The translations under genes and the position numbers were made by a program. A stretch of DNA of 64,000 nt, taken from the NCBI GenBank assembly GCA_000091205.1, contig AP006485.2; one strand, given 5' to 3'. Positions 1,547 through 64,000 of this stretch are shown here, one piece after another; within the stretch, counting starts at the first letter, position 1; the number at the start of each line of letters is the position of its first letter. Under the pieces are notes generated by a model. The model was given only the letters and a program-made list of their open reading frames with translations. It did not search any database and was not told the origin of the DNA. Source of the stretch: Cyanidioschyzon merolae. Taxonomy: Eukaryota.

Positions 1547-3892
1547 ACATATCGCTATTCAGGGAGATGTACGGAATACTCGGATCGCGACATTTCGCAT
1601 CCCGCAATCACGAACGAATGTGATCAGTGAGTGGTCCGGAACCCCGCACTGGCACAATGGACGGTATCGGCATGGTATCTCGGAGCGTCCATGGATTCCA
1701 GGAAGAGTCGGACGGAACAGGCGCTGTTCAGCACCAGTCGCCGCTCTGAGCAAACATGCCTAGACCTCCTTTTGTGGAACAGAGCTTGCTATATGCGCTT
1801 CACCTTGACGTTTTGAAACGCATCGTCGAGGCGTTTGCATATCCTTTTATGCCTACGCGACAGCATTTGTGAGTGGCCTCGGGCCTGCTGCCACAGTTGC
1901 GACTGAACGCATACGCATGAAGCGCGTGCCCGAGTTGCCCGCAGCAACCTGTCTACCTGATGGACGACGAGGCGCGAACGTTCATGACGGGATTCGCATC
2001 GATTTCGTCACTCCAGGTGCTCTCGATATCGTTTCCCAGAGTCCATTTCAGGGAAATAATAGGTAAGAAAGAACTGGCTGCACTCATTTCAGATACAGAC
2101 TTTGTCCTGTTATCGACATGTGTCGTTGCGAAGCTCTGCATCCCTCGTTTATATGGGTGTTCTCTTGATACAAACGTGTATGTCATATCCGTACCGGATG
2201 AAAATGCAATACTGAACAGTGCGCTCTGTTCTTAGCTTTCGATTGTTCACCAAACTTGTTTTAGACGTAAAGTCTTGGTATCCTGGTTCCAGTACTGCGG
2301 CATTAGGGATACATACCCCGTTTTAGAGCGAGAGGTCGTTTTCTTTCAAAATGGCTCCCGCGACGCCTTGCCGGTGGATTTCGATATATCGCCGGCATCA
2401 CGACGATGCGCAACGCTCTCGACAAGGACTTGTTTACGTAACCGACATCACTATCCAGCTCAGTTGCATGAGCCCCCTGTCTTCTCCTTTGCTCGCGTTT
2501 GGCACGTTCGCGTCATACATTCTTCAAGTTTTATACATCTGTGTTGCAACGCAACCCACTGGGGCGTCCAATTGTGCCAACGGATCGATAGAGAAAAATA
2601 GGCAACGTCGTACTGTGATGACTTTTCACGGCCTCATGCCTCATGATTACCGCACTTGTCCGGTCAAATCATCGACTACTCTAGGATGACAATGCCTCCT
2701 CTGTTTCTGGCCGTCGATGCACCCGCATACGATAACTGCAAGGTACCTCTTAGGACAGGGGACCTTAGACGCATACATTCCTTCTCTTCCCAAGGAAAAG
2801 GGTCATGGACTCGAAATATATAGCCACCGGCAGCGATCGCCCTCAGAGTCAATTGCGTCAAAGCTTTGCACGAACGCAGCGTAGACGAATCGGAATGGTA
2901 CGACTTGTTCTCGAGCCTGGATCTTCGTTCCCGTATCTGTTTCATTATATACGATGTCGAATTCCACATATCCTCTATCCATTAGAACAGCATGCGCTTG
3001 CGCATGCGGCAGAATGAATACTTTCCCAAAGATCGGTTCGGAAGATGCCCGTGATCGTACAGCACGGTACTCGACGCAGGAACGGATGCAGGTGTTGAAG
3101 CGAGCTTCCTGTACCCGTCAAGCGCATGTACAGAGCGATGAAGCAAGCTTTCGAGTGCCACGGGGCAGCGCACAGAGAAAAAGGAATCGGACTAGTAGTC
3201 ATATATTAGAATACCTGACTGCCTTCATGAATAATGGCTGCGACATCTGCACCGATGCACGACACATTGAAGATGAACATGGCGAGCGAGGCGTCAACCA
3301 CGACGTCCATATCTGCTCCAAGAGCGTCGACAACAATCGAAACGAACGAAATCTTGACTTGAACGCTGCCATCATCACGATCATCATCATCATCATCCTT
3401 CGACTCCTGATCATGGAGCTCGAGGGACACCAGAGGCCAGCATCGTGAAAGCCGGAGATACGACAGAGAAGAAAGGAGGCAGTCGTCCAAAAATCCCGAT
3501 AACGCTCATGTTGACAACACTGGGAACATACGCAGAATTTCGTATGTGCATCCGAGGTATCTATCTAGAAACTCTATCCTCTCTGTCTAACTAGAATATG
3601 AAGCATCGACGTCTCATTGGAATGCAGCGCTGCCGATCCAGCGCAACCCCGAAGGACGTCGTGCGGCATACCGTCGACGCTGTTACACCGGCTTTTGCGT
3701 TGTTGCAGGCACAAGGGCACCAACACAGGCGAGCAAGCAGTTCATGATCATCATCAAGTCGTTTCTTGGGGCTTACTGCTGTCTTAAAGTGTACACACAA
3801 CGTTGATCTAGAAAAGACGGAGCTTTCAGAGAGCTGCTTCCGATTTGGACACCACGGGAAGGATCGCTTTCACCGGCTACCTCATTTAGCGA

Positions 3893-19160: not shown

Positions 19161-19306
19161 GCATCCCGACTAGTCGCGGGACCTGTACGGGTGTCGATGG
19201 TATTTCAGGCATCCTACGCACCGGAATGTGTCGTTTTCAACATGGACGCACACGCTATATTTTGGATGTCTTCTCACTGTTTTGGACATGAGCCGTTGTG
19301 GCCTCT

Positions 19307-20056
19307 TTACGACAGTGTCCTTTTCCTATCTCTCATCTGAGGCTCGGCATTCGCCAGTTTATCGCATCCCTCTACCGCTATCTTCAACAGTCGCTGGATA
19401 TTGATGGCTGCGTTAAAGTCTCGATTTCGCTGCTTGGGGCATTTCTCGAAACCTATGATGTCGAGATGGTCGTTGCGATCAACGCTTCGCGTGACATGCT
19501 CATCTTGTTTGCATACGGTATCAGAGAACGCTGAGCGACCGTGACTCAGATGTCTAGCGGGGTCTTGCTTTACGACCAGCAGGTATGCTTCTCCGAGAAT
19601 CGCATTGTGGTACGTGAACGCCTGCTTCATGATTCGTTCCTTGCTCTTGACGGGCACAGGAGGTTCCATTCGTTTTCTATTTTCGTTTCCGTTTCTGGTG
19701 CCGTACCCTAGGGTCATTTTTTGTCTAGGCGATCCCGTTTACGAGAACTCTGTTTGGTATGCACGCAAGCGGGCGTTACTCCACTCGTTTGAGGATTCTT
19801 GGAACGAGATGCTGTCCGTGATGAAACAAGTTCTGGAACTACGATCCAGAACGGAGATCAAGTTGTGAATTTTCCATTCCTCTACGCTTTCTTCGTCGAA
19901 AGCGGTAACGCATTCACCACTGGAAGCGATCGCTGCGACGGCTGATTTCCGAATGCAACAGCCTTTGCCATGCAAACAGAAGAGACGTGAGCTTCTGCGG
20001 ACATATCTCGTGAGAGCCCTCATGCCGGTGACCAGGTTGGATTCGCAGGCGGCCAC
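19307..20056 (-). mobile_element. decayed TnpB/Fanzor-like (RuvC-type transposon nuclease) gene fragment, copy A; the upstream extent is uncertain
   Basis: The minus-strand ORF 19307-19717 ends ...VCKQDEHVTRSVDRNDHLDIIGFEKCPKQRNRDFNAAINIQRLL. The RuvC-III signature RDFNAAINI is encoded at 19397-19423, with its nucleotides near-identical to copy D. The next minus-strand ORF fragment (19739-20056) has RLFCLHGKGCC..., which resembles RLVIACGAGRW... upstream of copy D. The frames are broken. Confidence 0.55.
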
Positions 20057-20173
20057 AATGGGCGTTGGATTCGCCTTTCAAACGGAAACGATCGTTTCGT
20101 TGTGACTGGTGCAGAGAGGCCTCGGCATGAGCTTACGATCAAGTCACCAACGGCTGACGTCGACTATTTTTCG

Positions 20174-20692
20174 TCATCCATCCATCCATCCAGCCGTGCG
20201 AATCGCTGCGACCACGAGTCGCCTTGGAACACACAAGATCGAGGCATTGAAAAAGGCATGATTTGAGCGTGCTCCATATAAGGGATGGGGAAGTATGGCT
20301 GCTTGTACGCATGAATTGGATAATGACAGGGGCTTTTTTACGAACGCTTCTTCGACGGCGTGGCGAATGCTCTGGATTTCAGTGACTCGACGATTCCCAG
20401 CCACGGAGCGTTGAAGTGGCCACTCAGAAAAGATGACCAAGAATCCTGTAAAAACTCGCGAATATCCGAGCCTTTGTTGCTGCACTTTGAATATCGAGGC
20501 TGGGAATCTATAATAAACTCCGGAGAATCCAAAGACGGGAACAGCGTAACCAGTGCCGTCTTCGATTTCCATCGAGATCGATGAGACTTTTTTTTCTGTC
20601 CGATAGGCCCAAACTAGCGTCGCTGGAATCTGCGGGCTGTCTGAACAACCAGCGATGAATCCCCTCTGATGACGGATACCATTCGGATCCAA
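20174..20692 (-). CDS. hypothetical protein (172 aa) diverging from MRPL53; it could instead be further 5' debris of Fanzor-like copy A
   Basis: The ORF alone; I recognise no motif. It is head-to-head with the 20929 gene. Confidence 0.25.
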   Translation of the reverse strand: MDPNGIRHQRGFIAGCSDSPQIPATLVWAYRTEKKVSSISMEIEDGTGYAVPVFGFSGVYYRFPASIFKVQQQRLGYSRVFTGFLVIFSEWPLQRSVAGNRRVTEIQSIRHAVEEAFVKKPLSLSNSCVQAAILPHPLYGARSNHAFFNASILCVPRRLVVAAIRTAGWMDG

Positions 20693-25055: not shown

Positions 25056-26431
25056 TACGATACCAGTCCGCGCTGCCAGCGTAGGAAGCGGGTACCTTCA
25101 AGCGAGCCAAAGTGCCCGCAGTGTGGGTCTAGTGCGCCAAACCTGGGGTTTTGCCACCACTCAACCGGGTTCAGAGCAAGCGGTTCGCTTGATGCGTGTA
25201 CCCTGCGAAACAGCCGTCAGTCTCTCGTTTGTGGCTCAGTGTGGGGACGCAGCTTCGGCTTTGCAAACGTGTACCAGAATCCGGATAGCGCTGAAAAACT
25301 GAGCGAGTGGGTAGCACTTCGCTTCTTCTGAACAGCAGCTCGTCAGCGCCCAGGAGAGGGGGCGCACCGCCCGCCGTGGACCGCACCAACGTCCCAGCGG
25401 GCGTACGGCGAGAGCGTTGTTCTCTCGCCGTTCCTAACTCGACGCAAGCTCGCTTCGGGGCTAGTGTGGAACCTGAACTCCAGCCCCTCCCCCGCTCCAG
25501 GACAAACTCGCGCCCCGCACGCAAACGACGTTCAAAGACGTTGCCTCGTTCCCCACAGCGGCTCGGAGCTAGAACCCGAAGCACATCGATGAGTTTCGGC
25601 AAATTGCTACGCAGATACTCTTTAGTCTTCAGGGACTGACTTGGACTCGCGAGACACGTAACAGCTTTGCTATCGACATAAATGTTCTACTTGACAAGTG
25701 TCAAGCGCAACAATCGAATATGATTCTTCTGTGGTAGATGGTGCATTGATCGGCACTGAGGATAACCATCTTCATGCTTGTACTAGCTGGACGCTTTACA
25801 ACCTCTGGGTACATGCTACTGCTGCTCGTGGATGCTCATCGCGAAGCAGCTTCAGTGATGCGGTGCCTTGATTGCTTCGCACCAAGACCCCGTCACGAAC
25901 ACACTCCGGTACCACCGTCGAGGTCACCCAGCGAAACTCGCACGTTTGTACGCTCACAGATAACCAAAGTGCATGATGGATACGAAGCCTGTGACTGTCG
26001 CTGTTACGGCGAAGAGACAGTTCAAGCGCTCGCTGTGCGCTTGTGCAGAATACGCGTGAACCATGTTTCTAGCGAACCCGCAACTTGCGTGTCTTGTGTA
26101 GTTTCGTGATAGCTGTACGCACTGCGCACCATGGTACGTCCGGAGAACAAGTCTCCAGCACCGAAGCAGTACACTAGTCCATCGCCGAGCGCTCTCCGTT
26201 CGGGTGCGGATCACATCAACCGCAACGCTTCATAAAATCGTCTATGTACCTGGTGCAAGTAGGTGCAGTTGAAGAATCAATAGAAGCCAACACGACGATA
26301 TTCATAGGTTACTCTGTCACTGCACGCGACTTGAGGCCGGTGAGAGCGCACCAAGGCAACGGTTCCGCTGGGGCCGCTTTCGTTCCAGCAGGCAAGCATC
26401 TGATCAGCGGTTCGTCGACTTGTTCGCTACG

Positions 26432-26779
26432 TCATCTTGCCTTACGCTGCGCGCCTTCTTGGGTATAGAGACGCCTGCTGCACCCCCGTGCCAGGGCCAT
26501 ATGGAACGCTCGTAATTGCGTTACGCGGGCGTACACCATCAAGTTTCGGTTTCTGGCTACGCTCATCAACACCAGCATTTGCGGGTTCTTTTTCTCATTC
26601 TGCTTCCCTCTCCTTCCTCTAGTCGCCGGCTTGGAATACGCCGACGTCTTCGGTTCCTGTAAAATCGTCGCCAGCAGTCGACAGATGTTGATGGCAGTGT
26701 TCGTGTCTCGATGTCGCAGCCTTCTGCTGCTGTTCACGCATTTCATGCACAGGCTGGAGTTGCGATAGAGGCATTGCAT
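26432..26779 (-). mobile_element. decayed TnpB/Fanzor-like gene fragment, copy E (Zn-finger half + RuvC-III)
   Basis: Minus-strand ORF MQCLYRNSSLCMKCVNSSRRLRHRDTNTAINICRLLATI... A CxxC (CMKC) lies 10 aa before RDTNTAINI, which is encoded at 26684-26710 (rc cgagacacgaacactgccatcaacatc). This is the canonical C-terminal architecture of TnpB/Cas12/Fanzor RuvC-III. Confidence 0.55.
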
Positions 26780-27973
26780 GGCATTTTCATTTTAGTTGTG
26801 CTCAGACTTGGAGCGCTCTTGGCATCAGTGGCACTTGACGTGGCTAAAGTGTTTCCCCATGCCCAGCCAAAATTCTTCATCCGTGGACTTCGCTCGGGCC
26901 TGCTTGATCGCTGCATACATACCCGTTCAGGGGTACAGTGGGGCCCCGCCTCAATACCCCGTTCCGTTTTCGAGTCCGCTGCAGTACCGCACCGTTTCGT
27001 AAGATCACTGGCTTCCTCTGACAAATACCCGCGTTGAATACGCTGTACGCTGCAAACGCAAACGCACGCTGTTCCATTCGATAGCGCATTTGTGGAATGC
27101 GGTGTTCTTCACGCGGAAGCAATGCCCCGAAGCAGAATCTAGGCTGGAGATCAGGTCTTGGAATTTCGATTCGTCAACGCTCCCGTCGTGCAAAGGAGTG
27201 ATGCACGCTCGATTGGAAGCGATTGCTGGGATGAATCTAGTCCGATTCCGTTACTCCTTTCGATGTGAACAGAAGATACGGGGGCCCCTGTGAGCGTGCT
27301 CCATGAGCGCTGTTATGCTGGTAGCGCATGCCGTTTCGTCAACGGCCACAACCACAGGAGGATTTTTCATTCGAACGGATTCGATTATTTGGAGTGAGGA
27401 TTTCAGTCAGCTTTTGGGGCTCGGCCTGTGAACATTTCGTCAACGGACCAAGTCGTGTATTTTTCCTCGACAAGACAACAGCTCGAATGGCTGTTCGCAT
27501 GAGTTGCCTCGAAGTAGAACGATCGAAAACTTGGAGGTTGCTTGATTTGAGCATACTGCACGAAAGAAAACGAGAACACAAAACACTTGTACACAGGCAT
27601 TGGATAATGTCATCGGTTATTTTAGAAACCCTTGTTCGCCGGCGTCGCGATTCATCTTGATTCCGGTGGCGTACCGAATGCCATCGGCACACCGTGGAAG
27701 GCACCAATCAGGAAAAACGACCGAGAATCCTAGAACTACACATGAATCCGTGATCCCTACTTGCTGCGCTTCGAATGTTGAGTCTGCTTATCTAACAAGT
27801 TCAGAAAAATAATCCAAAGGCGGTAACGGAGCGAGCACTTCAGGGTCCCATTTTCATCTGACACAGGCGTAGAGCGTCCCCGGCAATCAACATTCCCATC
27901 AGAGCGCTTACGCGAAGCCCTCTCGTCGTTTCACATTCAGCTGTATCAGACAAAAGCGCTCGTGCGACGACCG

Positions 27974-28828
27974 CTAGACTCGTGGCCAGCCACCGGGTGA
28001 AATCCGTCGCTCGAGTAATGGCTTGGTTGGTTTCTGGTGTTGCCCCAGAAGCTTTGATACGCCAGGAAAGCTCCAACCTGTCGGCGCAGCAGCACTCGGA
28101 TCCAGCATCCTCTTGACACGACTCACTTTCCACCAGCTGATCGCCATAAAAGCGAGCGTTTTCAACAGAGCTGTCCACGCGAGCGCCGTGGATGATCCAT
28201 AAAGTGCCTCGAGCATGAGCCCAAGGCGATGGTTGAAGTAGTAGGCTGCGCCACCTACTTGCGCAACCCTATCTTGAAGATGATCGACCGCCGCTTCCAG
28301 GTCCTGTATGTGGCCGACTTTGATGGGCTCCTTCTTGTCAGCGTGCACGCCCGATACGACCTCGTCAACGACACCACCCTGCCACTCGAAGAGGATCTTC
28401 CGTGGTGGCCCATACGCACCAGCAAAGCAGATTCGATATAGGGGAAACCCGTCTTCCGTCACCTCAAAAGAGAAAGACTCTCCGGCGTGTGCGGGTAACG
28501 CGAGCACCGGCACGGAGCGCGACTCGTCGTCGATAGCGTCACGCGGCAGCTTCGAGACAATCATTTCTACCGCTGCACCTTTTGGTGGCTCTACCACCAA
28601 GTAGTGACCGCTTATGAGATCCCCTTTTGCTCCAGTCGTAAAGAAGCAGTTCGGATTACGGTTGTGGTCACGGGCGTCTCTAAGACCTACCCGCGGAACC
28701 GGCACGTAGTCGAACGTTAGCGCTTCTGCAGGAACGGCTGCGAGTTGTATCCCGAGTACCATAGCAACGATAACGAACACGAGGCAGACACAGGTAAGGG
28801 TCCAAACATATCGAGTACAGCGAGACAT
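27974..28828 (-). CDS. p24/emp24 (TMED) GOLD-domain cargo receptor; start at the internal Met (MSRCTRYVWTLTCVCLVFVIVAMVLG = signal peptide)
   Basis: Signal peptide, a GOLD-like beta region (..YRICFAGAYG..), a coiled segment and a C-terminal TM (ALAWTALLKTLAFMAISWWKV) in the p24 order. The ORF continues 5' to 29032 without a signal sequence, so the 28828 start is preferred. The tail after the TM is longer than in classical p24. Confidence 0.6.
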   Translation of the reverse strand: MSRCTRYVWTLTCVCLVFVIVAMVLGIQLAAVPAEALTFDYVPVPRVGLRDARDHNRNPNCFFTTGAKGDLISGHYLVVEPPKGAAVEMIVSKLPRDAIDDESRSVPVLALPAHAGESFSFEVTEDGFPLYRICFAGAYGPPRKILFEWQGGVVDEVVSGVHADKKEPIKVGHIQDLEAAVDHLQDRVAQVGGAAYYFNHRLGLMLEALYGSSTALAWTALLKTLAFMAISWWKVSRVKRMLDPSAAAPTGWSFPGVSKLLGQHQKPTKPLLERRISPGGWPRV

Positions 28829-29691
28829 TATGAATATACACTGCACAAGTTTCCGAGGAACAACACTAGGGCCCCGAACGACGTTGAGGAGGCGGCTCGC
28901 GTTGAAGCCAAAAATGGTTTTTGTACCGTGCCCCGCAAGTGCAGGGCACGTCCATCGCCAGTCCTCGCGGCTGGCGGCGAGCGCGTCGCAGTTGTCTGCA
29001 ACAGTCGCGCTGCGATCGGGCAAGCGCTGCATCGCGTCAGCACATCGGGAGAGACGTGTGCGGACGCCTTTGGAAAAGAAAAATTGTAATTAATGGTATA
29101 ACACTGCATGTTTATGTACTTTTTGGATAGGAACTAGATATACGGGGAGCGAGAGAGGTACCAAATTGGATATTTATAGACTTTTTGGACACAAACTCGA
29201 CAGTCGTAATGACGAGATCATTCCAGACGGCGTATTGAGTTTCTTTGATCTAAAGCGGATGCATGCAGGCCTGGTGCCCCCGCCCCTAACCCCGCCCCCC
29301 GGTTATCCCCAGGGCGCTCCACTGTCTTTATTCCGGGTTCGTTCGATGGTGTATGCAGGGCCCTGGTACGGCGTTCTTTGGGACTTGAGCGAAACGAGCT
29401 GTTGTGAACATATGCGCACCGAATAAGCGTGACCGTGCCGGACATCAGAGCGAGCATTCGCGTGGAGGCGCATGAATGCGGACTCCGTTCCGCGACCGGC
29501 ACTCGCTGAGGAACGAAAGCTATAGCGCTAGATGCGATCGCGAGCGCGTCCACACGCGGTACCCCAGAGTGGTCAAAAAACCTCGCGCAGCTCGCAGAAA
29601 GCGCCACCAGCCAGGGAATGCACCTCGCTGGCGCACCCGCGCCCAGGAAACATTCCGACACGTGTGCTAGGGTATGCGCTACAAACGCTAT

Positions 29692-30633: not shown

Positions 30634-33600
30634 GCTGCTTACAGCGGCACGCCTCGCGGTTTCCTATGCCTCTCGCGGTACTCTCGAGGCAGCGGCTGCA
30701 GCGCAACGAACCCGCACCCTGCAACCTACGTGTACGCTGGTGAGTACGGCACACCGGTGCTTCACCAGAACCTATCGCTTTTGGCGTGCTAGCATGCAGT
30801 CCGACAGCCGACGAGCGTTCTACGCCGAGCGGTGTTTCCCGGAACACTAGTATTAGCACGCTCTTTTCTGTTTCTGTTTGTTGGTGTTCGCAGGTACACC
30901 GCGAACAGATTGTACGCCACGAACCGGCAAAAAGTTCCGTAAAAATTTAACGATATCATTGGAAGTTGGCCGTTGCCGCATTACTTGTACAAGGCAGTTA
31001 TTCTGCGGTCAGTAGATAGGTGGAATACCCAACTTGTCGTGACCCGTGGAGAATTTCGTCCACCAAAGCCAGAACATATCGAGTTCTATTGTCACGAATG
31101 TCGCCTCGTCCATTGATTCCACTCCATACGTTCTTGAAGAACTATCAGCAAAGAGGCCACAGGATGTGAAGCCTCCGTACCAACAGTACGAACTGAATTG
31201 AAGAGACAAGGCTGGGCACAGGAAACCAGATGCTTCAGTGTGAGTCCGTCACGCTCGGAACCGTACACCGTCGAGTGCGTACTTCATTGTGAACCCTAAC
31301 GACAGAAGCGACAGCTGATGATCTCATCGCAAGAACATGCATCCAGTGGAAACGGTAGAACAGTGTATGGGTTGTCGAAGAGGGCCAAACCGCCGTTTTG
31401 CAACAGAGGGACGAGGAAGTGTTCCGAAAACATCAGCGTTTGGAGCGAGTTTTTCGTGTGCTCTCCCATGATTCGCCAGAAGAGGTGAATCGTTCAGCAC
31501 CACAGCCTTTGTCGACAAAGTACGCATCGTGGCTCTATCGTCACCGATTTCTCGGACCTGCTGATTGGCAACATCGCTTTCCATCGCCTAAAACCGATCA
31601 AAGCGTGCCCGACTGAGACTGGTGCTAAGCTGCTCACCGGTCTAGCCTGTTCTGCTTATGTCAACCCAGTCAAATGCGTCTCCTCTATTGTCGAGCGCAT
31701 TTTTCACCCGCACCTAACAGTGAACGAGTCGTTTGCATGCGTGAAACCGGAAGCTACAGGACGACATTAAAAGTCGCGTTGCTTCTTCTTCGAATAAGGC
31801 TCGCTCAGCTTCTTTCGCCTTGACGCATCTTGCCCAGCAATTATTCGTTTAAATTACGGGCGCACGGTTGCAAGCTGGGTACATCCCTCTAAAATTTTCG
31901 ACCAAATCCACGTGAGGCAACTGATGATCTGGAGAGGAAATCCAACACTGCCTGATTGAAGGATCCTGGATTTGCGCAAACGACAACCCGAGTTTCCTGA
32001 TGGATCGCTGCGACCCGTCGGCGATGGTAACATCTACATCCCCAACGCCTACGAGTACCAAACCATCCTCAAAAAGCATCTATGCGTCAAACAAGGGCGC
32101 TGCATGGGCACTGTATCCGTAGTGGCCTCAACGCATCGACCAAGAGGCTTGTGCGTCAATAAAAAGGAATTTCTGGTGAGTCGCTGAAGGCGAGCGGCGG
32201 GCTGGTGATGGAAGCGCTCGACGTGCTAGCGAGTCCCGATGAGATATTGCAACGAGAGCGGCATTCACCTCGTATCGTCTAGGCTCGTGGTGTTGCTGTG
32301 GGCTTGGCATCGACGCGTGTCGTACACATGGGATATTTGAAACGTAGTGCCTGAATTCCTCGCATCTTGCGCCTCTCTGTTTCCCTGAACAGAGGTCTGC
32401 AGAACGATGCATATGATTTCCCCAAACCCGGGCGTCCAAGTCTGCTCAAACGCTGATTCGATGTGCTTCCCACGTATCGTAACAAGTCCTATGGTGTAAA
32501 CGAATACATTGGTGTACTGGAATGTATGGCCTGTTCAGTGAGCGACGGCTGATCGCTGAAGGCAAATCCGAAGTACTCGAACGGCTTCACGAAGCGCATT
32601 GTCCGAGGCCGGTAAAGATTTCTCGTTTACAAGGAGAAAACGGATAGAAATCTGCATAGAGCATGCACGCCTACAGCATATGCATCTATGTGTACTTTGC
32701 GAGACCTAGGCATGAGTTGCGCGGAATGGACTAATTTGCAATCGTTCAAAGCAAATGAGAAGAAGGATTTTGTGGTGAGCATGGCTCTCGTGCCGACAAA
32801 CATCATGGCCGACGTCGTCCAGCTAAATCAAGGCTCGGGTGACCAAGGCCTGAATGGAAAGCACATGAAGCAGTTCAAAGATTCTGAAGCTCGTTATCAT
32901 TCGAAATCGAGCACGGTGGAAGCCACGAGACTTTCCAGCAAGTGGAGCAATGGCACCAGGACCCATCTCGAAGCCCAGAGTATCATATCGCACAGAGACG
33001 GATGCTTCGTACTCGTCATTCAGAGCGTGCACGGGTGCTCAAGTGGCTCATACACACAATGTTTGGCGGGAGTACATGCGCTCGCTCTTCGGTCGCCAAC
33101 TGTTTCGACTATACCAAGACGACAATCGCGCTTTCGCCAGGTTTCTTAACGATTTCTAAAGAAGATACAGCTGAATATTCGGGTCGTTTAATGATGCCCT
33201 AGGGCGTTGAACGGGCTAGGTCGCGCAAACCCTGAACCCCTGCTCCTTCGACGAAATCGAGCACCGAGCGCAGGAAGCGGTTCTGCAGGATTCTCGTCGA
33301 TGAAGTCCGGATGACGTTCACGGAACACGTGCACAAGTACATCTTGAAGCTGGCTCAGAAAGAGATCCTGAAGCAGAGCCCCATGCACGTATTATTGTAC
33401 GGTACGCTCATCAAACGTCTGACGGGGCGTCGATCGAAGGCACGCGTGTTGCCATGGATTCATATTATCAGCAGAAATGCGCAGAAGCACTTTCAGCACA
33501 GAGACGAGAACATCTCGATCAGCACTTGGGAATATCTCGGTCTTGCACAGCGCCAACCAGTTTCGTCGAGCGAATTTCCATGGGAATCGAATAGGACACC

Positions 33601-34420: not shown

Positions 34421-36379
34421 ATGTCTTTGGAACGCTCTAGCGCACAACGGGTTGATGCTTTGCGCAAACTCCTAGCCGCTCGCGGACTCGATGCATACCT
34501 GGTCCCTTCGGAGGACGCGCATGCCTCTGAGTACGTTGCAGCTTGTTTCCAGCGGCGGGCATTTCTGACCGGATTCACGGGCTCCGCTGGTACTGCAGTC
34601 GTTACGCGCGACCGAGCTTTTCTCTATACTGACGGGCGCTACTTTGTGCAGGCGGAACGGGAGCTCGACCCCAACGTGTGGGAACTGAAGAAACATCTCA
34701 TAGATCCACCGATGGAAGAGTTTTTGGGCACTGTGCTGGCTTCCGGATCGCGCTTGGGGTTTGATCCCGAGACGCTTTCCATCAGTGCCTTCAACAGGCT
34801 GCGCAAAGCGCTGCAGCAGCACGGCATTCACCTGGTTCCTGTTACGAACGAACAGGACGGCACGGAGAGCGCTAGCACGCGCTGCAATTTAGTGGACCTT
34901 GTATGGGGAGCCGCCCGACCAGCGGAACCTCGCTCCGTCGTTTTTCCGCATGCGCTCTGTTTTGCTGGTGAGACGGCAGCGAGCAAGGTGAGCAGGGTCC
35001 TCAACGACATGGCGAAAAACCGGGTGGACTGGCTTGTTGTTTGCGCACTTGATGAAATCACCTGGCTCTTGAACTTGCGCGGAAATGACATCGAATACAA
35101 TCCGGTTTTTCTGGCGTATGTGCTCTTACATCGACGCGCTGTCTCTGAGGCCGAAAACGAGCCCGCTGGTGACTTGTACCTGTATACCGAGCAGGAGCGC
35201 CTCAACGCTGAGGCACGCGAGGCCCTCAAGGCCCTGAAAGCTCATCTAAGGCCGTATGAGGCTATCGCCACCGACCTGGAACAGCTCATCGCTCTGGGGG
35301 ATTGTGTCTGGTATGATCCGAGTCATACGAACTGTCTTATTGGACAAAAGCTCCATCTCGCGGAGTTCAGCGAAGCAACCCTGGACAGCAACCCTGCATC
35401 CGCCAAGCATGCAAGGCATTCAATTTTGGCAAAGGCAACCCCTATCGGCCTGTTCAAAGCTCGCAAGAACGAGACGGAGCTGGCTGGTATGCGCGCTGCA
35501 CACCTGCGGGACGCCGTGGCGCTCTGTCGCTTCCTGGCGTTGCTCGAGCACAAGCTCGTCGAACAGGGCACCACAATAAATGAGATGGAGGCTGCCCAGC
35601 TCCTGGACGAGTTTCGATCGCAACAGGAGCATTTTGTTTCACCGAGCTTTCCAACGATTTCGAGTGCTGGTCCGAACGCTGCGGTTATTCATTACAGGCC
35701 GTGTGCGGAGAGCGCTCGACCGATCACGAGGGATGCGATCTATCTGGTCGATTCAGGAGGTCAGTATCTGGACGGCACTACCGATGTGACACGAACGCTG
35801 CACTTTGGCACGCCTACCGCATTGGAGCGCGAGTGCTTTACGCGCGTGCTCAAAGGCTACATCCAGCTGGAGCAGGCATGCTTTCCTCCGGGTACTACTG
35901 GTCAACAGTTGGACGTTCTGGCGAGGTTGCCGCTCTGGCTCATCGGCCGCGACTATCGGCACGGTACTGGACACGGCGTCGGATGCTTCCTGAATGTGCA
36001 CGAGGGCCCGCAAATGATAAGTCCACGGTCTTCTGCCGGTGAGACGCCCCTGGAACCCGGCATGACTGTAACGAATGAACCAGGCTACTATGAGAACGGA
36101 CGGTTTGGCATGCGATTCGAGAATGTTCTGCTGGTTGTCCCGAAGCTTCATCCCGATCACTGCATGGACCGGAAAGCATTCCTGGGGTTTGAAAACATCA
36201 CGCTGGTTCCAGTAGAGCGCAAGTTGCTGGATACCAAACTTTTGACAGAACAAGAGATCGCTTGGATCGATTCTTATCATCAGAGCGTATGGAAAGCTGT
36301 GGCGCCGCTTGTTGCGGATGACCCGTTAGCAACAAAATGGTTGCATCAACAATGTCGATCATTGCGGGCGACATGTTAA
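34421..36379 (+). CDS. Xaa-Pro aminopeptidase (M24B, APP1/XPNPEP1-like)
   Basis: 652-aa ORF with a creatinase-like N-domain and the M24 pita-bread C-domain. Metal-ligand motifs include HGTGHGVGCFLNVHEGP and ...NEPGYY... ENV. Confidence 0.85.
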   Translation: MSLERSSAQRVDALRKLLAARGLDAYLVPSEDAHASEYVAACFQRRAFLTGFTGSAGTAVVTRDRAFLYTDGRYFVQAERELDPNVWELKKHLIDPPMEEFLGTVLASGSRLGFDPETLSISAFNRLRKALQQHGIHLVPVTNEQDGTESASTRCNLVDLVWGAARPAEPRSVVFPHALCFAGETAASKVSRVLNDMAKNRVDWLVVCALDEITWLLNLRGNDIEYNPVFLAYVLLHRRAVSEAENEPAGDLYLYTEQERLNAEAREALKALKAHLRPYEAIATDLEQLIALGDCVWYDPSHTNCLIGQKLHLAEFSEATLDSNPASAKHARHSILAKATPIGLFKARKNETELAGMRAAHLRDAVALCRFLALLEHKLVEQGTTINEMEAAQLLDEFRSQQEHFVSPSFPTISSAGPNAAVIHYRPCAESARPITRDAIYLVDSGGQYLDGTTDVTRTLHFGTPTALERECFTRVLKGYIQLEQACFPPGTTGQQLDVLARLPLWLIGRDYRHGTGHGVGCFLNVHEGPQMISPRSSAGETPLEPGMTVTNEPGYYENGRFGMRFENVLLVVPKLHPDHCMDRKAFLGFENITLVPVERKLLDTKLLTEQEIAWIDSYHQSVWKAVAPLVADDPLATKWLHQQCRSLRATC

Positions 36380-41547: not shown

Positions 41548-43709
41548 TTACACTCCCGCGTTGCGGAACATGTTCGGTACTAGTGAACTGCGTAGATGCA
41601 GAGGAAGGAAACACGTCGATTCATGCCAGATGGTCCGCAGGGCACGAGGCGCCTCAGCGAGCGACGGAGCACACTCCTTTCAAATACGTATCGCTTTTGC
41701 CGTGGATGTCAATTGTCTTTCCATGGACTTTTCGCAAACCAATCAGCCATGCACGTGCGCTGTGCTCGTTTCCAATTAAAATGAGAGACTGGACATCGCG
41801 CCCTGTTCCTGGTTTGAGCGTTTGCCGGACTTTTTGTTCAGAAGTGCAGACTCGACATTCGAAGTTGAACAACAGGAAATGATGGATTCATATCCGGTGT
41901 TACGATTCTCGGTCGTGTTGTCGACGTTGCTCGACTGTCTCTCTCTCTCTCTCCATCTCTCTCGCTGGAATTCTTCACGTCACCGGTATCAGGATGATTT
42001 CCGACGATCTCGAAAGGCGGTTTCGCAAGATAACCGCTCTCATGATGCAATGCGCATGCCCATGCATCCATACTCGTCCTTTCCTTACATGTACTGCAGC
42101 AAAATCGCGCATGCCTCAAGTTTCCAATCCTTGTTTCTCAAGATATCTCGGGTGCGTAGCCGTGCGAGCGCCTGGATTGAGGACCAAAACTACTCCGTGT
42201 TGTCCCTTGACGACCTGTTCACAAGCTCATGCCAAAACTTTGTTGAACTCGTTATCTCAAATAATCAATTCTGTTCCAAAGACAAACCCTCGATGCCTTT
42301 ACGTCATCCCAGGACCATCATTCTGCAGCAGCACGATACCTCTACCAGGTAATGCTCCCAGAGAGACCTATCTCTTGTGTTTGCCTGGGAAAGCTACTTG
42401 GACTCGAATCTGCGTCATCGCATCGATCGCTTCCAAAGGAACGCTTGTCACCGCTGTGCACGAAGCGAACGTACATGGATCGAAAGTCCCCGACTTTGCT
42501 TTCCAGTCTGGATTTAGCTTCCCATAGATGCTTCATCATGGACAACATCACGTGCCGCAAATTATCCATCGCATGCGAAAGCGAGCACTCGCGTGTGCAG
42601 CTGACGAAGTACACTCCCGGCGGATCGCTCGGGCCAGGCCCATGATCACAGGGCATGGTGCTGGACACGGAAACATAGGAGAGCATCGAGGTGAGCTTTC
42701 TGTACCTGTCAAGAGCGTCTGCGTTGTTCTGCAGAAAGCGTGCACACGCAGCAGACCGGCGTTCGGAGTAGGATGAGGTGCTGTGGACCTCACGAGATAT
42801 TTGACCACAATTGATAGTCTCCGCTGCGAACAGCGCACTGCGGATGTACATACAAAGTAGATCAATGTGGCAAGCGAACCGTATATCGCAACTGCTATCC
42901 GTGCATGAACGACGCTGCCAAGAAAAGCAAGATAGCAAATCATGACGTGAACGCTCCCACGAGCATCCTACAACTGCTGAAACCAGAGGCGACGGAAAAA
43001 GTAGAGAGCCGCGCATTTAAGGCTGGAAACAAGAGATAAGCAGGGGAAGCAGTCACAGAAAAATTCCGCAAAGCCCGGTACTGATGACTGCGAAAAGCGA
43101 CCAGCGTTTCTCTAGATACGCCCGAGTCAGGCAAGTGCACCCGTTCCGGTGTATTCTCCTGACACGGGTGCAATTGCCGACCCGCGGCGGTGAACCTCGC
43201 AAACACATTCCTCCGTCGGACACGTTCACGCAGTCGAGGGGCTCTCGCTCGCCAGCCATCACTCTGCGAAAGTTTTGGTGATGCAGAAAGCGCTCCCAGT
43301 TACGAAACACTGCAACCACCGCGCAGACTCTGGTAACTGTGCGTCGGTCTGTTCCCGCTTATGACGCGCAAATGGCAAGGCCGTGCTCCTCCGAAACGCA
43401 ACTCGTCGTCGTGTCTCCACCTGCACGTTGGACCTCGTTTCCCAATGTTTTTCTCTGCAATTTCGGGGATGCTCACCAACCTGTCCCGGTCTGCGTCACC
43501 CTGCCGGGCTACCACGAGATACTAGGGCACATTCCGTTGGCCATTGACGTCCGCACAACCACCGGGAAGGTGCGATCGGTTCCCGCCTTGTCGTCTACGC
43601 TTCCGCTCTTTGATAGGCTCTTTTCGCCGTGCATCCTTGCAAATCGTCTTTCAGGCTTTCTATGCGGTCACACTGACGAGCGCGCCTGCCGACGTTCGGT
43701 AATCCTCGT

Positions 43710-48494: not shown

Positions 48495-51400
48495 AAAGCA
48501 CCGCTCATCATGCTATTGCATCACGATTCTGCTTCTTTGAATCCGGTGGAATCGGGGCTTTTTAGTAGCTCGTGCATCCTGTTTTGGTGTTGCTGTTGCT
48601 GTTGCTCCTGGGATTCTAGCTATGTCTTCGGCGCTGTAATGACTGGTTCGTGAACGGAGAACAAATGGAGTGAGCATTCGAATGACCCGAGCACATTCCC
48701 TTTCCGACAATTGGCATTGCAGGTCCTGTGAAATTTTCCACATGTGCCACTGGTCTGAAGCTATCACGTGATGCGTGAAGGCGGGACCTCGTCAACGACA
48801 TGCGAGCGTCCTTTGGGTGAATACCCGCTGATACCGCTCAGGCGTTTGCGTGTCGTGCGACTGCCAGTTATGCGGTATTCCCTGCAGCCGTGACTGCTTC
48901 TGGTACAACGCCAACAGCTGGTTCTGCCTGCGCTGTCGTTGGTCACGTCTACCATGAATGCTTGTTCACTAACTGCCCGTTCATATGCGCGTCATGCTGG
49001 AGCAACCGCCAGAGCTAGCCCTAACGTTGCTCGCGTTCGCCATGAATACTGCTTAATCACCGTTGCGTTCACTAGGACATACTGCACTAGTTACCAGCAG
49101 TGCTGCGTTGGCTGTCGCTTGCTTCCACCGCTACTTCTGCTTCAGCTTCTTCGCAATCGAGTTTGCATAGTACAGCAGCGACCGCGGGCGCTGCCCCTGC
49201 TCTCGCGAGCGTCGAGCGTGGCTGCGCTATGGGCATGTTCGCGTTCGGATGCGCGTAGTATAGCTACATCTTCTGTTGCATGCCAAACGTCGCACGGCGT
49301 CCCAGCTTCCAAAGCAACTGATACGTGATGTTTAGGAAGCATCTGGTTGGGGTACGCGTCGAACTTCGATTGCCGTATCCGTACGCTTCGTCGGCGCAGA
49401 CACAATGCGCTCCCACGGCGTCTCCGTTTTCATGGACTTCTTCTCGTTCGCCCGGGTAATGCTGCATCCTGCATAAATATGCTTGTGCCTCTGAAACTCC
49501 TAGTGCAGTCGTAGAAAATCCGGGTCAGCATGGTGTAGCATCCCCGACATCCTACAGACAACAACGAAGCACTTCATGGAGGTCTTTCTGAACCACGAAT
49601 AACGGAGTAAATGCGTCTCATGCATCCTCAGAGGATCAAGAGCATCTCCAAACAAACGTCTGGCGCTGCGCGACGTCCATCGAAGAACTCCTGCCATACG
49701 GCAAACTACACAAAAGTATGCCGATCACATCCTTCGTATTACTTTCCAGGAATCATATTCGAACGAACCCTCTAATATCTGTCGTACGATATCGGGGCTT
49801 GATGCCCGCATCGCGAGATTCTGAAGAGAAGCGAGCGCGTTGCGAGCGCACCACGGAAACAGCGCGACGGGACACGTCACCGGACAGATTATTCCATTTA
49901 TGTCGCATATCTGATATTTGCAGCACGATGCATGACGCCTGCACGCAGCGCGATTCCCGCCTGAGACACGTGTCTGGATATCCCTTCTGGCGGCAGATCG
50001 ATTTCTCTAACAGGATTCTCACCGATGCGTCGTTGCTTTCACTTACCTGGAAAATAAGCCAACGATCTTATGCATCCGGCAACACAGATCACTTCATGTA
50101 CAGAAGTTCCATCAGTGATAGAGGTTGGATTGAGATCCACGATCCTGTCTGGGTGCGGGTACCCAGCGCAGGTGCTTGTTACGACACTGGATGCGCAATC
50201 ATCGCCCCCGTCATTGCCGGTTGGAAACCGTTCGACGAGCTATTGCCTTGGCGGGAGGCGGCTCATGGTACGTGCGTTGAATGCGCTGGTGCCTCATCTA
50301 CTCCATGTCAGAATAAATTGGAACAGGTCCCCTATCTCGGGCGTACGCGCCCATGTTCAGATCTCTCCCAATTGTCATGAATACCCAGCTTTGGAAGCAT
50401 TTTCGGCGCCTGCTCCCTCATCCACGCTCTTGTCTCTGGCCTTGCATATGCCGGTCTTCCATGTCGACAGTGCTGTTGCAAGCAGTCAAGGGATGTAGGT
50501 GAAAGCGTACGAGGCCCAATTTCGCCGCCTTAGGTTGTTGTCCGAGCATACCTTGGAGAGGCGGAGGTTGCAATGTACGGATCCTTTGTGTATATACGGC
50601 ATCTGTGCGCCCTTCGCACCAGTGACACTTGGCCGTGGTCATGCGTTCGTGACTCTCGACCGCATGTTCTTCTCTGAAGCACGCCCTGTTGCGTGGTACG
50701 GCTCCAGAAGGCTCCCTTGGATGCAGTCCTGCGTTTGGGCACTTGGCTTGGCACCCCGTGATCCTAGGCTTTCACCGGGATCTCCATCCGGCGAGCTCAC
50801 TGTCCGCTGCACGCGCAAGCGCACGCTGTTCCATTTATGATGGGTTTTCGGACCTCGATTTTGTCCATAATGGCACCAGTACCGTAGGGAATATCCAGGT
50901 AGGAGAACAAGTCGAGCACTGTCGAACGGTATACGCTCTGTTCTTGCAACGCGATACTGCACCCTGCACTGGGTGAGATCGCTGTGATGACACAAGTCCG
51001 AGTCCAGGATGCTTTTCGACATTAACGGACTAGACGACAGCATCTGGGACATGTCCCGCGAGAAGCATCATGCTGGTGCTGTCGAAAGCCATGTTGTGGA
51101 TAGCCAAAAATGTAGAGGTGGATACGCCATTCGAACAATGCCTTGAAAAAAAGGTAACTTGAAGAATGCGTGATTTGAGCGATCTACAAGTTAGTAAAGA
51201 AGAGTACTGGGTGCTTGTATGTATGGATTCGATCATGATTTGGGTCATTTGGAGAACTCTTGTTCGAGGATGTCACGAATCGTCTTCATTCCGGTTTCAT
51301 CATTAATCCTAGAGGCAGGACTTCGATATGGCTTCTCTAAAAACTCCAACGCGAATCCTGAACCAACGTGCAAATCCGTAGGCTCTTTTAGCAGCACGTC

Positions 51401-51934
51401 GAGAATCGAGATTGCATACAGAGAAAGTTCGGATATCGCCAAAAAACCAGGAAAGGAGCAAGTGTTCAAGCGCTCTCTCATATTCTGACTGATGTATTGC
51501 ATGTCTCCCGAGGCGCACTCAACGCCTGTCGGTTCACCGTCGAAATGGAATGTGTTTGTAGAGTTATGCAAGCTCTCCCGGTGATGCACATGATTTGGCC
51601 CTCATGCCCGCCTCTGGTCTTTCAACTCAGTATTGTTTCACCCCTGCTGTGGTGTATGGCAGGCGATCGAAATCCCGATGCAAAGCACTGGAGAGATCGT
51701 GGACGAACTGCCTGTAGGATATGTATTCTTCATTGAACAGTTCAAGGAGGAATGCATTCCTGCTTCCAGTCGGTCATACCGTAGTTCTCAGATAGTTGGC
51801 GAGCGACGACAGAAATAAGCTTAGAGGATCCGCCCCAAAACTGGTATTGACAAAGACTGCCTGCAGTCGATGGTAGATAACGACCCGTTGATCACGTTAC
51901 GGAAAGCAAAAGCGACTCTAGCAGACACATCGGC

Positions 51935-63437: not shown

Positions 63438-64000
63438 ATTCGATACGTGTATCTGCCCTTCTTGTACAAAACAAATCAGCGGATGAAACGCGTATGGCAG
63501 GCATGCACCAATCGGGGTACCGCCCGGCGCTAGGCATCAAAAAGGACTCGAGCGGGGCCTCGCGGCGGACGAGCTCGCCGAGCGCGACACCCGCTGCTGG
63601 ATGCAGCGCTCCGAAGCTGCAGCAGCGCACGAATACGCTGTCTGTATTCGGTAGGCATGGAATATTGTACCGCTCAGATGGTTTCTGCTTTTCGACTTTT
63701 TCCGCTCTTTGCCACAGATGCACAGCGTCGACGTTGAACGCGCTGCTCTTCTGGCTTACGGATTCATTCATTGTTTGGGATTCTCGGTCGTTTATTTTCT
63801 CGGAGTCGCTCTGCTGCCCTTGGCTGGAGGGATTCCTTACGTTACCGGAACCGAGATGAATCGTTACGTCCTCGAACAAGGATCTGGATACATAACCGAT
63901 ATCATGATGCAGTCCATGAGTACGATTGCGGACTCTTCTGCTTGACTCGTGTAGAGCACGTCCAAATCACGAATGCTTCAGCATTTCTATCTCTCTGGCT

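What the first reader, a model, noticed from the sequence alone, without database searches (positions are those of the whole stretch)
26432..26779. Fanzor/TnpB-like relic copy E with an intact CxxC-(10 aa)-RDxNxAINI arrangement
...SSLCMKCVNSSRRLRHRDTNTAINICRLL shows the second zinc-finger CxxC placed 10 residues before the RuvC-III Asp, exactly as in TnpB/Fanzor C-termini. This fragment alone would be diagnostic. It lies in a 2.8-kb gene-free spacer that may hold the rest of the element.
Basis: seen in the sequence. Interest (0 to 1): 0.55.

Follow-up and report, generated by a model that had tools for sequence, protein, structure and literature searches.

The report
Dead Mariner–Fanzor transposon deletion remnant

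Summary
The window is Cyanidioschyzon merolae 10D chromosome 3. The 115-aa ORF at 26432-26779(-) with ...CMKC-(10 aa)-RDTNTAINI is there exactly as described.

It is the 3' part of one decayed copy, 27869-26481(-), of a ~1.4-kb dispersed repeat with six copies in the window (~68-70% pairwise identity).

A majority consensus of the copies shows two pieces:
- Consensus nt 217-909 encode the first ~229 aa of a Tc1/mariner-IS630 type transposase (Pfam DDE_3 above its cut-off; E=8e-41 to an intact relative).
- From nt 909, in another frame, lie the last ~150 aa of a Fanzor1 (63 bits, E=1e-20 against a Fanzor1 C-terminal profile).

Metagenome contigs hold intact two-gene relatives (transposase followed by a ~800-aa Fanzor1). 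These are the closest match to both halves and have homologous terminal inverted repeats next to TA.

So copy E is a pseudogenised, internally deleted, non-autonomous Mariner-Fanzor1 element. About 2.1 kb is missing, including RuvC-I and the whole Fanzor N-terminus.

It is wrong that the rest of a Fanzor lies upstream. This family is distinct from the published CMe-1A Fanzor1 family, which is also in the window.

Low interest; a new member of a known kind.

The parts
26481..27869 (-). Whole decayed element, copy E (about 1.39 kb). It is an internally deleted Mariner-Fanzor1 transposon relic.
   Evidence: nhmmer with sister copies places the shared homology at 27875-26477. The termini were set by comparison with the TIRs of intact relatives L009/L011. 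Identity to the family consensus is 80%.
27870..27871 (-). TA dinucleotide abutting the 5' end (candidate target-site duplication).
   Evidence: E reads 'GCTC TA CGCCTGTGTCAG...'. L009 and L011 also have TA at the equivalent position.
27845..27869 (-). 5' terminal inverted repeat, CGCCTGTGTCAGATGAAAATGGGAC.
   Evidence: It is inverted with respect to the 3' end and homologous to the L009/L011 TIR CAACCGTGAAAATTAAAATGGAAC.
27089..27776 (-). Relic of the N-terminal ~229 aa of a Tc1/mariner-IS630 (DDE_3) transposase: HTH region plus the first two catalytic Asp motifs. The first D is kept (VVAVDETA, 27329-27352). The second D is mutated to K (CFRVKNTAFHK, 27089-27121).
   Evidence: tblastn of intact transposases hits 27776-27360 at E=3e-10 and 27352-27089 at E=2e-7. 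The consensus matches Pfam DDE_3 at 34.9 and 30.5 bits, cut-off 28.6. The consensus matches the intact L005 transposase at E=8e-41. There are 3 in-register stops.
27086..27089 (-). Deletion junction. Transposase homology ends and Fanzor1 homology begins, in a different reading frame.
   Evidence: Transposase alignments end at consensus nt 909. The Fanzor HMM alignment starts at consensus nt 909. The same junction is present in all complete copies.
26636..27086 (-). Relic of the last ~150 aa of a Fanzor1. It includes RYRMEQRAF (27060-27086), KPVILRNGA (26988-27014; consensus IIGYGAG), MYAAIKQA (26897-26920), the first CxxC with a stop SHVKCH*CQ (26819-26845), the second CxxC LCMKC (26738-26752), and the RuvC-III motif HRDTNTAINI (26684-26713).
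   Evidence: Consensus against the Fanzor1 C-terminal HMM: 63.1 bits, E=1e-20. Consensus against L009 Fanzor1 residues 575-775: 39.5% identity, E=5e-23. Copy E alone: E=0.004.
26432..26779 (-). The reported 115-aa ORF. It is an accidental open frame that starts inside the zinc-finger region and runs 49 nt past the element's 3' end.
   Evidence: The exact sequence is absent from the 15-billion-protein collection, so no source calls it as a gene.
26481..26507 (-). 3' terminal inverted repeat, GTTCCATATGGCCCTGGCACGGGGGTG. It is followed by CA (26479-26480), where most other copies have TA.
19240..20581 (-). Sister copy A (carries NRDFNAAINI at 19397-19426).
   Evidence: 18.8 bits to the Fanzor HMM.
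2181..3556 (+). Sister copy B.
41757..43175 (+). Sister copy C. It is 99% identical in related strains' contigs L002-L004.
50277..51522 (-). Sister copy D. It has internal deletions and keeps the first zinc knuckle as CHWC.
63620..64000 (+). Sister copy F, 5' part only, cut by the end of the window.

Best explanation
Copy E is a long-dead, non-autonomous DNA transposon. It is an internal-deletion derivative of a two-gene Mariner-type element that carried a DDE_3 transposase gene followed, on the same strand, by a Fanzor1 (TnpB-like RNA-guided nuclease) gene, between ~25-bp terminal inverted repeats flanked by TA.

A single deletion of about 2.1 kb removed transposase residues ~230-320, the intergenic spacer and Fanzor1 residues 1 to ~575. 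The lost part includes WED/REC and the RuvC-I Asp. The deletion joined the two remnants out of frame.

The shortened element kept both ends, so it could still be mobilised in trans by full-length relatives. It spread to several sites and has since decayed by point mutation and small indels.

The 'CxxC-10-RDxNxAINI' string is simply the best-preserved piece of the Fanzor1 zinc finger and RuvC-III region. It encodes nothing functional today.

Shown: the repeat family and its shared junction; the transposase and Fanzor1 homologies; the existence of intact two-gene relatives; the homologous TIRs; and the stops and frameshifts.

Inferred: that the deletion happened within one parental element (for example by abortive gap repair), and that the copies were mobilised in trans.
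For: - Organism: the window is C. merolae 10D, on a 481,791-bp chromosome. Neighbouring genes are BAM79027/29/30, including CMC093C.
- Repeat family: six copies share common 5' and 3' limits. They are 70-80% identical to the consensus.
- Transposase half: the consensus matches Pfam DDE_3 at 34.9 and 30.5 bits against a cut-off of 28.6. The intact 320-aa transposase of L005 aligns to consensus nt 217-909 in one frame, 36% identity, E=8e-41.
- Fanzor half: the consensus from nt 909 matches a Fanzor1 C-terminal HMM (13 Fanzor1 sequences from PMC3627910) at 63.1 bits, E=1e-20.
- Intact relatives: contigs L009, L011, L006, L019 and L027 carry a transposase ORF followed by a 700-800-aa Fanzor1 ORF on the same strand. 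The L009 transposase matches DDE_3 at E=4e-28 and also HTH_33. The L009 Fanzor1 has RuvC-I GLDPG, KCHRC...CEHC and NRDFNAAINI.
- Same nearest relatives for both halves: the transposase half matches L006/L009/L011 at E=1e-40 to 1e-43. The Fanzor half matches residues ~575-775 of their Fanzor1 proteins at E=5e-23 to 9e-21.
- Termini: the family TIR TA|CRCCCGTGTCAGATGAAAATGGAAC is homologous to the L009/L011 TIR TA|CAACCGTGAAAATTAAAATGGAAC. TA abuts most well-aligned ends.
- Same junction elsewhere: it is present in all complete window copies and in paralogous copies from related strains, L010 and L012-L018, L020 and L021.
- No coding capacity: copy E has 7 in-register stops and 5 indels, and the other copies are similar. 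The ORF is called by no source.
- Precedent: Mariner elements encoding a transposase plus Fanzor1 (PUl-1, PGv-1) are described in PMC3627910.
Against: - No full-length parent of this exact family was found in the window or in C. merolae-like contigs. The intact relatives are only 33-40% identical in protein and come from unidentified organisms.
- The outer limits of the element are blurred by decay. In copies D and E some similarity extends 10-30 bp beyond the TA, so the ends and the TSD are not proven.
- The consensus rests on only five or six window copies.
- Trans-mobilisation is inferred, not shown.
Confidence: 0.85

Rival explanations
1. One reading: a stand-alone Fanzor/TnpB element relic whose remaining domains (RuvC-I, RuvC-II, N-terminus) lie decayed in the upstream part of the 2.8-kb spacer.
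For: The C-terminal ~150 aa are genuinely Fanzor1-like. Remnants of the RuvC-II-equivalent strand and of the first CxxC are upstream.
Against: Immediately upstream of 27086 the sequence is a DDE_3 transposase N-terminus, not Fanzor. A full-length Fanzor1 HMM matches the family consensus only at its positions 518-661 of 689. The N-terminal 555 aa of the closest intact Fanzor1 has no hit in the window at E<=0.1. The element ends at a TIR about 100 bp upstream of the transposase relic, so there is no room for more.
Confidence: 0.04
2. Two unrelated fragments joined by chance or by capture. For example, a Mariner element picked up only the 3' end of a Fanzor gene, or inserted next to a Fanzor fragment, and the composite was then amplified. 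On this view there was no deletion within a two-gene parent.
For: No full-length parent of this family was recovered from C. merolae. The window holds other Mariner-Fanzor composites with different break points, at 51610-53014 and 31558-33584, so rearrangement is common here.
Against: Both halves have the same intact two-gene elements as nearest relatives. They have the same orientation and order as in those elements. Both TIRs resemble the TIRs of L009/L011, including the 3' TIR that lies downstream of the Fanzor part. One deletion explains everything.
Confidence: 0.08
3. Chance motif: CxxC...RDxNxAINI arose by accident in non-coding DNA.
For: Copy E alone scores weakly: no Pfam TnpB/Fanzor hit, 8.1 bits. 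A loose [RHK]D.[ND].[AGS].N[ILMV] pattern matches only two places in the six frames of the window, so one such match could in principle be luck.
Against: The family consensus matches Fanzor1 over 150 aa at E=1e-20 and E=5e-23. The motif is shared by sister copies.
Confidence: 0.01
4. A domesticated or still-coding fusion protein: a transposase DNA-binding domain joined to a Fanzor zinc-finger tail, or a small 115-aa zinc-finger protein.
For: An ATG-initiated 115-aa ORF exists.
Against: The two halves are out of frame even in the consensus. Every copy has several stops and frameshifts. The ORF starts in the middle of the zinc finger and runs past the element end. It is in no protein collection. 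Copies differ by about 30% with no sign of frame conservation.
Confidence: 0.02

Closest known systems
Mariner/Tc1 elements that encode both a Mariner-like transposase and a Fanzor1 protein (PUl-1 of Pythium ultimum, PGv-1; Bao & Jurka 2013, PMC3627910)
   Same: Same layout in the reconstructed parent and in the intact relatives L006/L009/L011/L019/L027: TA-flanked TIRs, a DDE_3 transposase gene, then Fanzor1 on the same strand, about 3.5 kb in all.
   Different: Copy E and its family lack about 2.1 kb of the middle, are non-coding, and are only distantly related to PUl-1 (transposase 24% identity, E=1.5e-5; Fanzor C-terminus E=0.004).
CMe-1A, the published Fanzor1 family of C. merolae (about 150 copies, 3169-bp consensus, TE class 'unknown'; PMC3627910)
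   Same: Same genome. Both end in ...NRDFNAAINI-type RuvC-III motifs. Both are old, with copies ~80% identical to their consensus.
   Different: It is a different family. The CMe-1A consensus matches the window at 58391-61478, 52628-52983, 41322-41537 and 31740-33584, but not copy E. It matches copy A over only 29 bp. CMe-1 lacks the C4 zinc finger that this family has. CMe-1A has no transposase part.
Bacterial TnpB (IS200/IS605, IS607) and Cas12f (Pfam PF07282, Cas12f1-like TNB domain)
   Different: Pfam similarity is below threshold: 13-15 bits against a cut-off of 26.3. The relic is of the eukaryotic Fanzor1 type (IIGYGxG, PVK, [ST][ST]xxC4) and sits in a DDE transposon, not an IS605/IS607 element.
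Internally deleted non-autonomous DNA transposons (Ds-type elements, deleted mariner/P elements)
   Same: It retains both termini, lacks a complete transposase, and has multiple copies sharing one deletion junction.
   Different: At 1.4 kb it is larger than typical MITEs. It carries remnants of two different genes.

Membership tests
Fanzor1 / TnpB-like RuvC nuclease (motif D-X(125,275)-[TS][TS]-X-X-[C4]-X(5,50)-RD, PMC3627910) | RuvC-I aspartate (GxDPG strand) and the N-terminal WED/REC part. | tested here: not met
   The full-length Fanzor1 HMM matches the family consensus only at positions 518-661 of 689. The L009 Fanzor1 N-terminal 555 aa has no hit in the window. The upstream sequence is a transposase.
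Fanzor1 / TnpB-like RuvC nuclease | [TS][TS]-x-x followed by a C4 zinc finger. | tested here: inconclusive
   Remnants only. Copy E has S-H-V-K-C-H-*-C...C-M-K-C, with a stop inside the first knuckle and two more between the two knuckles. Copies D (CHWC) and B (CDIC) support an ancestral first CxxC.
Fanzor1 / TnpB-like RuvC nuclease | RuvC-III 'RD' motif (RDxNAAxNI) 5-50 aa after the zinc finger. | tested here: met
   HRDTNTAINI at 26684-26713, 10 aa after CMKC. The consensus reads NRDLNAAINI.
Fanzor1 / TnpB-like RuvC nuclease | Conserved Fanzor1 Glu in the 'DE[FY]xTS' segment and the IIGYGxG strand (RuvC-II region). | tested here: not met
   The strand is recognisable (KPVILRNGA; consensus IIGYGAG). 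The Glu position is Lys both in copy E (GKHFSH) and in the consensus (KKHLTT), where intact L009 has WEHLTT.
Fanzor1 / TnpB-like RuvC nuclease | Statistically significant sequence similarity to Fanzor1 proteins. | tested here: met
   Consensus: 63.1 bits, E=1e-20 against the Fanzor1 C-terminal HMM, and E=5e-23 against L009 Fanzor1. Copy E alone is marginal: i-E 0.001 and E=0.004.
Fanzor1 / TnpB-like RuvC nuclease | Associated guide (omega/fRNA) scaffold at the 3' end of the element. | tested here: inconclusive
   RNAalifold on the 3' regions of five copies gave only -5.4 kcal/mol, with a positive (unfavourable) covariation term. Rfam found nothing there.
Tc1/mariner-IS630 (Pfam DDE_3) DNA transposon | DDE_3 catalytic domain. 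| tested here: inconclusive
   The first and second Asp regions are present in the consensus (FVAVDETAF, IMDNIAFH). DDE_3 scores 34.9 and 30.5 bits against a cut-off of 28.6, but covers only profile positions 3-101 of 146. The third acidic residue (YSPxxNPIE) is deleted. In copy E the second D is K.
Tc1/mariner-IS630 (Pfam DDE_3) DNA transposon | N-terminal helix-turn-helix DNA-binding region. | tested here: met
   Copy E 27776-27360 aligns to residues 6-138 of the intact L006 transposase, E=3e-10. The intact relative L009 has HTH_33 in that region.
Tc1/mariner-IS630 (Pfam DDE_3) DNA transposon | Terminal inverted repeats. | tested here: met
   There are ~25-bp decayed TIRs at both ends, homologous to the TIRs of intact L009/L011.
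Tc1/mariner-IS630 (Pfam DDE_3) DNA transposon | TA target-site duplication. | tested here: inconclusive
   Copy E has TA at the 5' end but CA at the 3' end. TA follows the 3' end in copies D, G, H and J and in L009/L011. Other ends are too decayed, and in D and E similarity extends beyond the TA.
CMe-1A Fanzor1 family of C. merolae (Repbase / PMC3627910) | Nucleotide similarity to the 3169-bp CMe-1A consensus. | tested here: not met
   nhmmer and blastn of the published consensus hit 58391-61478 and fragments, but not 26400-27900. Copy A matches over 29 bp only.
Non-autonomous internal-deletion derivative | Several copies share one internal break point and both termini of an autonomous element type. 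| tested here: met
   The same junction at consensus nt ~909 is in the window copies and in four independent loci from related strains. The termini resemble those of intact two-gene elements. A conspecific autonomous parent was not found.

The most novel reading that the evidence does not exclude
The C. merolae Fanzor relics may all descend from one lineage of Mariner/ITm transposons that carried Fanzor1 as a passenger. That lineage survives intact (transposase + ~800-aa Fanzor1 + defined TA-flanked TIRs) in uncultured organisms (L006, L009, L011, L019, L027). L019 pairs such a transposase with a CMe-1-clade Fanzor1. If this holds, it would settle the 'unknown' transposon class of CMe-1A. It would also offer compact natural transposase-Fanzor1 pairs for testing how an RNA-guided nuclease cooperates with a DDE cut-and-paste transposase.
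Probability: 0.4. Interest if true: 0.3.

Novelty: new member of a known kind. Interest (0 to 1): 0.15.

Why it matters
It matters little for biology at large. This is a pseudogenised transposon fragment with no sign of function.

For transposon and genome annotators it has three uses:
- It shows that a diagnostic-looking TnpB/Fanzor C-terminal motif can sit in an element whose bulk is a DDE transposase remnant. Motif-based Fanzor counts therefore need whole-element context.
- It adds a second, zinc-finger-bearing Fanzor1 lineage to C. merolae, beside CMe-1A.
- Together with the neighbouring composites and the intact metagenomic relatives, it ties red-algal Fanzor1 genes to a specific Mariner-type carrier.

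Tried and rejected
- Pfam on stop-masked raw frames of copies E and A gave only a sub-threshold PF07282 hit for A. Single decayed copies are too broken, so I moved to a family consensus.
- My first frame assignment for the 5' half of the consensus was wrong. The resulting pseudo-protein found nothing among 5.8 billion proteins. The correct frame (frame 0, nt 217-909) came from alignment to intact transposases.
- I considered that 'PVPVKS...' was the third DDE motif (NPxE), and that 'YSP' in frame 0 continued the transposase. Both were rejected. Intact Fanzor1 proteins have the same PVK and QRALARAADR motifs, and transposase alignments stop at consensus nt 909.
- A 45-bp inverted repeat seen in copy D suggested longer TIRs. 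Comparison with more copies and with L009/L011 puts the likely ends further in, next to TA. The outer similarity remains unexplained.
- A conserved RNA (omega RNA) in the 3' region: alifold was weak.
A single consensus protein worked.
- phmmer of the L009 Fanzor1 against PDB sequences found no match.
- Orthologous contigs from related strains (L002-L004) are 99% identical and cover copy C only, so they give no test of selection on copy E.

Full report
**Where we are.** Two window ORFs are identical to C. merolae 10D proteins: BAM79029.1 (aminopeptidase P, 34421-36379) and BAM79030.1 (37843-39240), both on a 481,791-bp chromosome. The gene just upstream of the finding, 27974-29032(-), is CMC093C, a GOLD-domain protein. 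The window is therefore nuclear chromosome 3 of the red alga Cyanidioschyzon merolae, a compact genome that is almost free of introns.

**The observation.** The ORF 26432-26779(-) exists and reads MQCLYRNSSLCMKCVNSSRRLRHRDTNTAINICRLL.... CMKC is followed by ten residues and then the Asp of RDTNTAINI. Taken alone it is weak evidence:
- Pfam shows no TnpB/Fanzor match for it.
- A Fanzor1 C-terminal HMM gives 8.1 bits.
- An intact Fanzor1 C-terminus gives tblastn E=0.004.

**It is one copy of a repeat.** Self-comparison shows that 26477-27875 is one of six copies of a ~1.4-kb dispersed repeat. The copies share 5' and 3' limits:
- A: 20581-19240(-)
- B: 2181-3556(+)
- C: 41757-43175(+)
- D: 51522-50277(-)
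- E: 27875-26477(-)
- F: 63620-64000(+), cut by the window end

Pairwise identity is about 68-70%. Identity to a majority consensus is 70-80%.

**What the consensus encodes.** I built the consensus without reference to any protein. It has two parts.
- The transposase part. Frame 0 residues 216-311 match Pfam DDE_3 (the IS630/Tc1-mariner transposase core) at 34.9 bits as an isolated segment and 30.5 bits in the whole frame. Both exceed the curated cut-off of 28.6. The match covers profile positions 3-101 of 146. An intact 320-aa transposase recovered from a metagenome contig (L005) aligns to consensus nt 217-909 in a single frame, over its residues 6-229, at 36% identity and E=8e-41. That alignment ends right after the second catalytic Asp motif (IMDNIAFHKSS).
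- The Fanzor part. I built an HMM from the C-terminal regions of 13 Fanzor1 proteins. These were CRe-1 to -5, CVu-1, CMe-1 and PUl-1 from the supplements of Bao & Jurka 2013 (PMC3627910), plus five relatives. From nt 909, in frame 2, 150 residues match this HMM at 63.1 bits, E=1e-20. The match spans LY..QRAL, IIGYGAG, PVK, TT..C, C..C and NRDLNAAINI.
- A full-length Fanzor1 HMM matches the consensus only at its positions 518-661 of 689.

So the family is the first ~229 aa of a Mariner-type transposase joined, out of frame, to the last ~150 aa of a Fanzor1.

**Intact relatives.** I scanned metagenome contigs with the consensus transposase segment and recovered 30 loci.
- Thirteen loci are C. 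merolae-like contigs that carry this short element. L002-L004 are 99%-identical orthologues of copy C. The other ten (L010, L012-L018, L020, L021) are paralogous copies with the same short spacing between transposase and Fanzor parts.
- Others come from different, unidentified organisms and are intact two-gene elements. L009 has a 328-aa transposase (DDE_3 E=4e-28, plus HTH_33) followed on the same strand by a 796-aa ORF. L011, L006, L019 and L027 have the same layout.
- The L009 ORF2 is a complete Fanzor1. It has RuvC-I (RGLDPGRV, D467), TTRKCHRC...CEHC and NRDFNAAINI, and scores 75 bits to the C-terminal HMM.

Both halves of the C. merolae consensus have the same nearest relatives. The transposase half is 33-36% identical to the L006/L009/L011 transposases (E=1e-40 to 1e-43). 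The Fanzor half is 35-40% identical to residues ~575-775 of the Fanzor1 proteins of those same elements (E=5e-23 to 9e-21). Motifs I had first suspected of being transposase-derived (PVPVK, QRALACAADR) are in fact shared with these Fanzor1 proteins.

**Ends.** The family's 5' end and the reverse complement of its 3' end share TA|CRCCCGTGTCAGATGAAAATGGAAC. L009 and L011 diverge from each other exactly outside TA|CAACCGTGAAAATTAAAATGGAAC (5') and ...GTTCCATTTCTACTTTCTCTGGTG|TA (3'). The TIRs are therefore homologous, and the intact elements are flanked by TA as Tc1/mariner elements are.

For copy E this gives the following map:
- TA at 27871-27870
- 5' TIR from 27869
- 3' TIR ending at 26481
- then CA where most other copies have TA

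In copies D and E some similarity runs 10-30 bp further out. I cannot explain that, so the exact ends are not proven.

**Copy E in detail.**
- Transposase relic, 27776-27089. The first Asp is kept (VVAVDETA, 27329-27352). The second is mutated (RVKNTAFHK, 27089-27121).
- Junction at about 27089/27086.
- Fanzor relic, 27086-26636. It contains RYRMEQRAF, KPVILRNGA, MYAAIKQA, SHVKCH*CQ (26819-26845), LCMKC (26738-26752) and HRDTNTAINI (26684-26713).
- There are seven in-register stops and five indels. The conserved Fanzor1 Glu (WEHLTT in L009) is Lys.
- The 115-aa ORF starts inside the zinc finger and runs 49 nt beyond the element. It is absent from a 15-billion-protein collection.

**Mechanism.** The simplest account is a single internal deletion of ~2.1 kb in a ~3.5-kb Mariner-Fanzor1 element. 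The deletion removed the transposase C-terminus, the spacer and Fanzor1 residues 1 to ~575. Both TIRs survived, the short element was amplified in trans, and it then decayed. That DNA transposons generate such derivatives is established knowledge. That it happened here in one step is inference. Nothing suggests present-day function.

**Relation to what is known.** Bao & Jurka 2013 described Fanzor1 genes carried by Mariner elements with TA duplications (PUl-1, PGv-1). They described a single C. merolae Fanzor1 family, CMe-1A: about 150 copies, ~80% identical to a 3169-bp consensus, of unknown TE class.

The CMe-1A consensus matches the window at four places:
- 58391-61478, 83% identity, a pseudogene
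- 52628-52983
- 41322-41537
- 31740-33584, distantly

It does not match copy E. CMe-1 also lacks the C4 finger that this family has. So the finding belongs to a different, apparently undescribed family of a well-known kind. A literature search found no description of it. I could not check Repbase.

**Verdict.** It is a new member of a known kind, and of low interest.

Noticed in passing
window 58391-61478 (+): Near full-length copy of the published Fanzor1 element CMe-1A. It is 83% identical to the 3169-bp consensus, and its Fanzor1 ORF is broken by stops and frameshifts.
   Followed up: partly
window 31558-33584 (+): An older, strongly diverged CMe-1-clade Fanzor1 pseudogene at 31745-33559 matches the full-length HMM over positions 72-667. 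Directly upstream, at 31558-31752, lies a relic of the C-terminal part of the Mariner-type transposase (LLIGNIAFHR...NPVK). This may be the remains of a full two-gene element.
   Followed up: partly
window 51610-53014 (+); L016 230-1615; L017 3289-4636: A second ~1.4-kb composite repeat: a transposase relic (51932-52503, including YSASFNSVEG) followed by a CMe-1A-type Fanzor 3' fragment (52628-52983). Paralogues at 68-69% identity occur in related-strain contigs. In the window and in L017 it lies head-to-head with a copy of the copy-E family.
   Followed up: partly
L019 103-1014 and 1205-3310: In this metagenome contig a DDE_3 transposase is followed by an intact 702-aa Fanzor1 of the CMe-1 clade (1126 bits to the CMe-1-clade HMM, which may include a near-identical sequence). 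This hints that CMe-1A, whose TE class was published as unknown, derives from a Mariner-type element.
   Followed up: partly
window 41322-41537 and 63034-63259: CMe-1A 3'-end and 5'-end fragments lie next to copies C and F of the 1.4-kb family. Transposon relics cluster in the same intergenic spacers.
   Followed up: no
window 10937-11498 and 40367-41050 (related sequence at 63029-63153): Two young tandem arrays: an 82-bp unit x 6.9 at 99% identity, and a 136-bp unit x 5 at 96%. The second has a ~75% identical single unit at 63029-63153.
   Followed up: no
window 63332-63424 (+): Rfam calls a tRNA (48 bits, 93 nt) that ARAGORN does not find. It is probably an intron-containing or otherwise unusual tRNA gene, as I recall is typical of C. 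merolae.
   Followed up: no
window 51511-51560 and 50230-50290; 27880-27893: In copies D and E, inverted or shared similarity (GCGTTGARTGCGC...) extends 10-30 bp outside the TA that marks the element end in intact relatives. This is unexplained. The TIRs may be longer in this family, or insertion may have been into a repeated target.
   Followed up: partly
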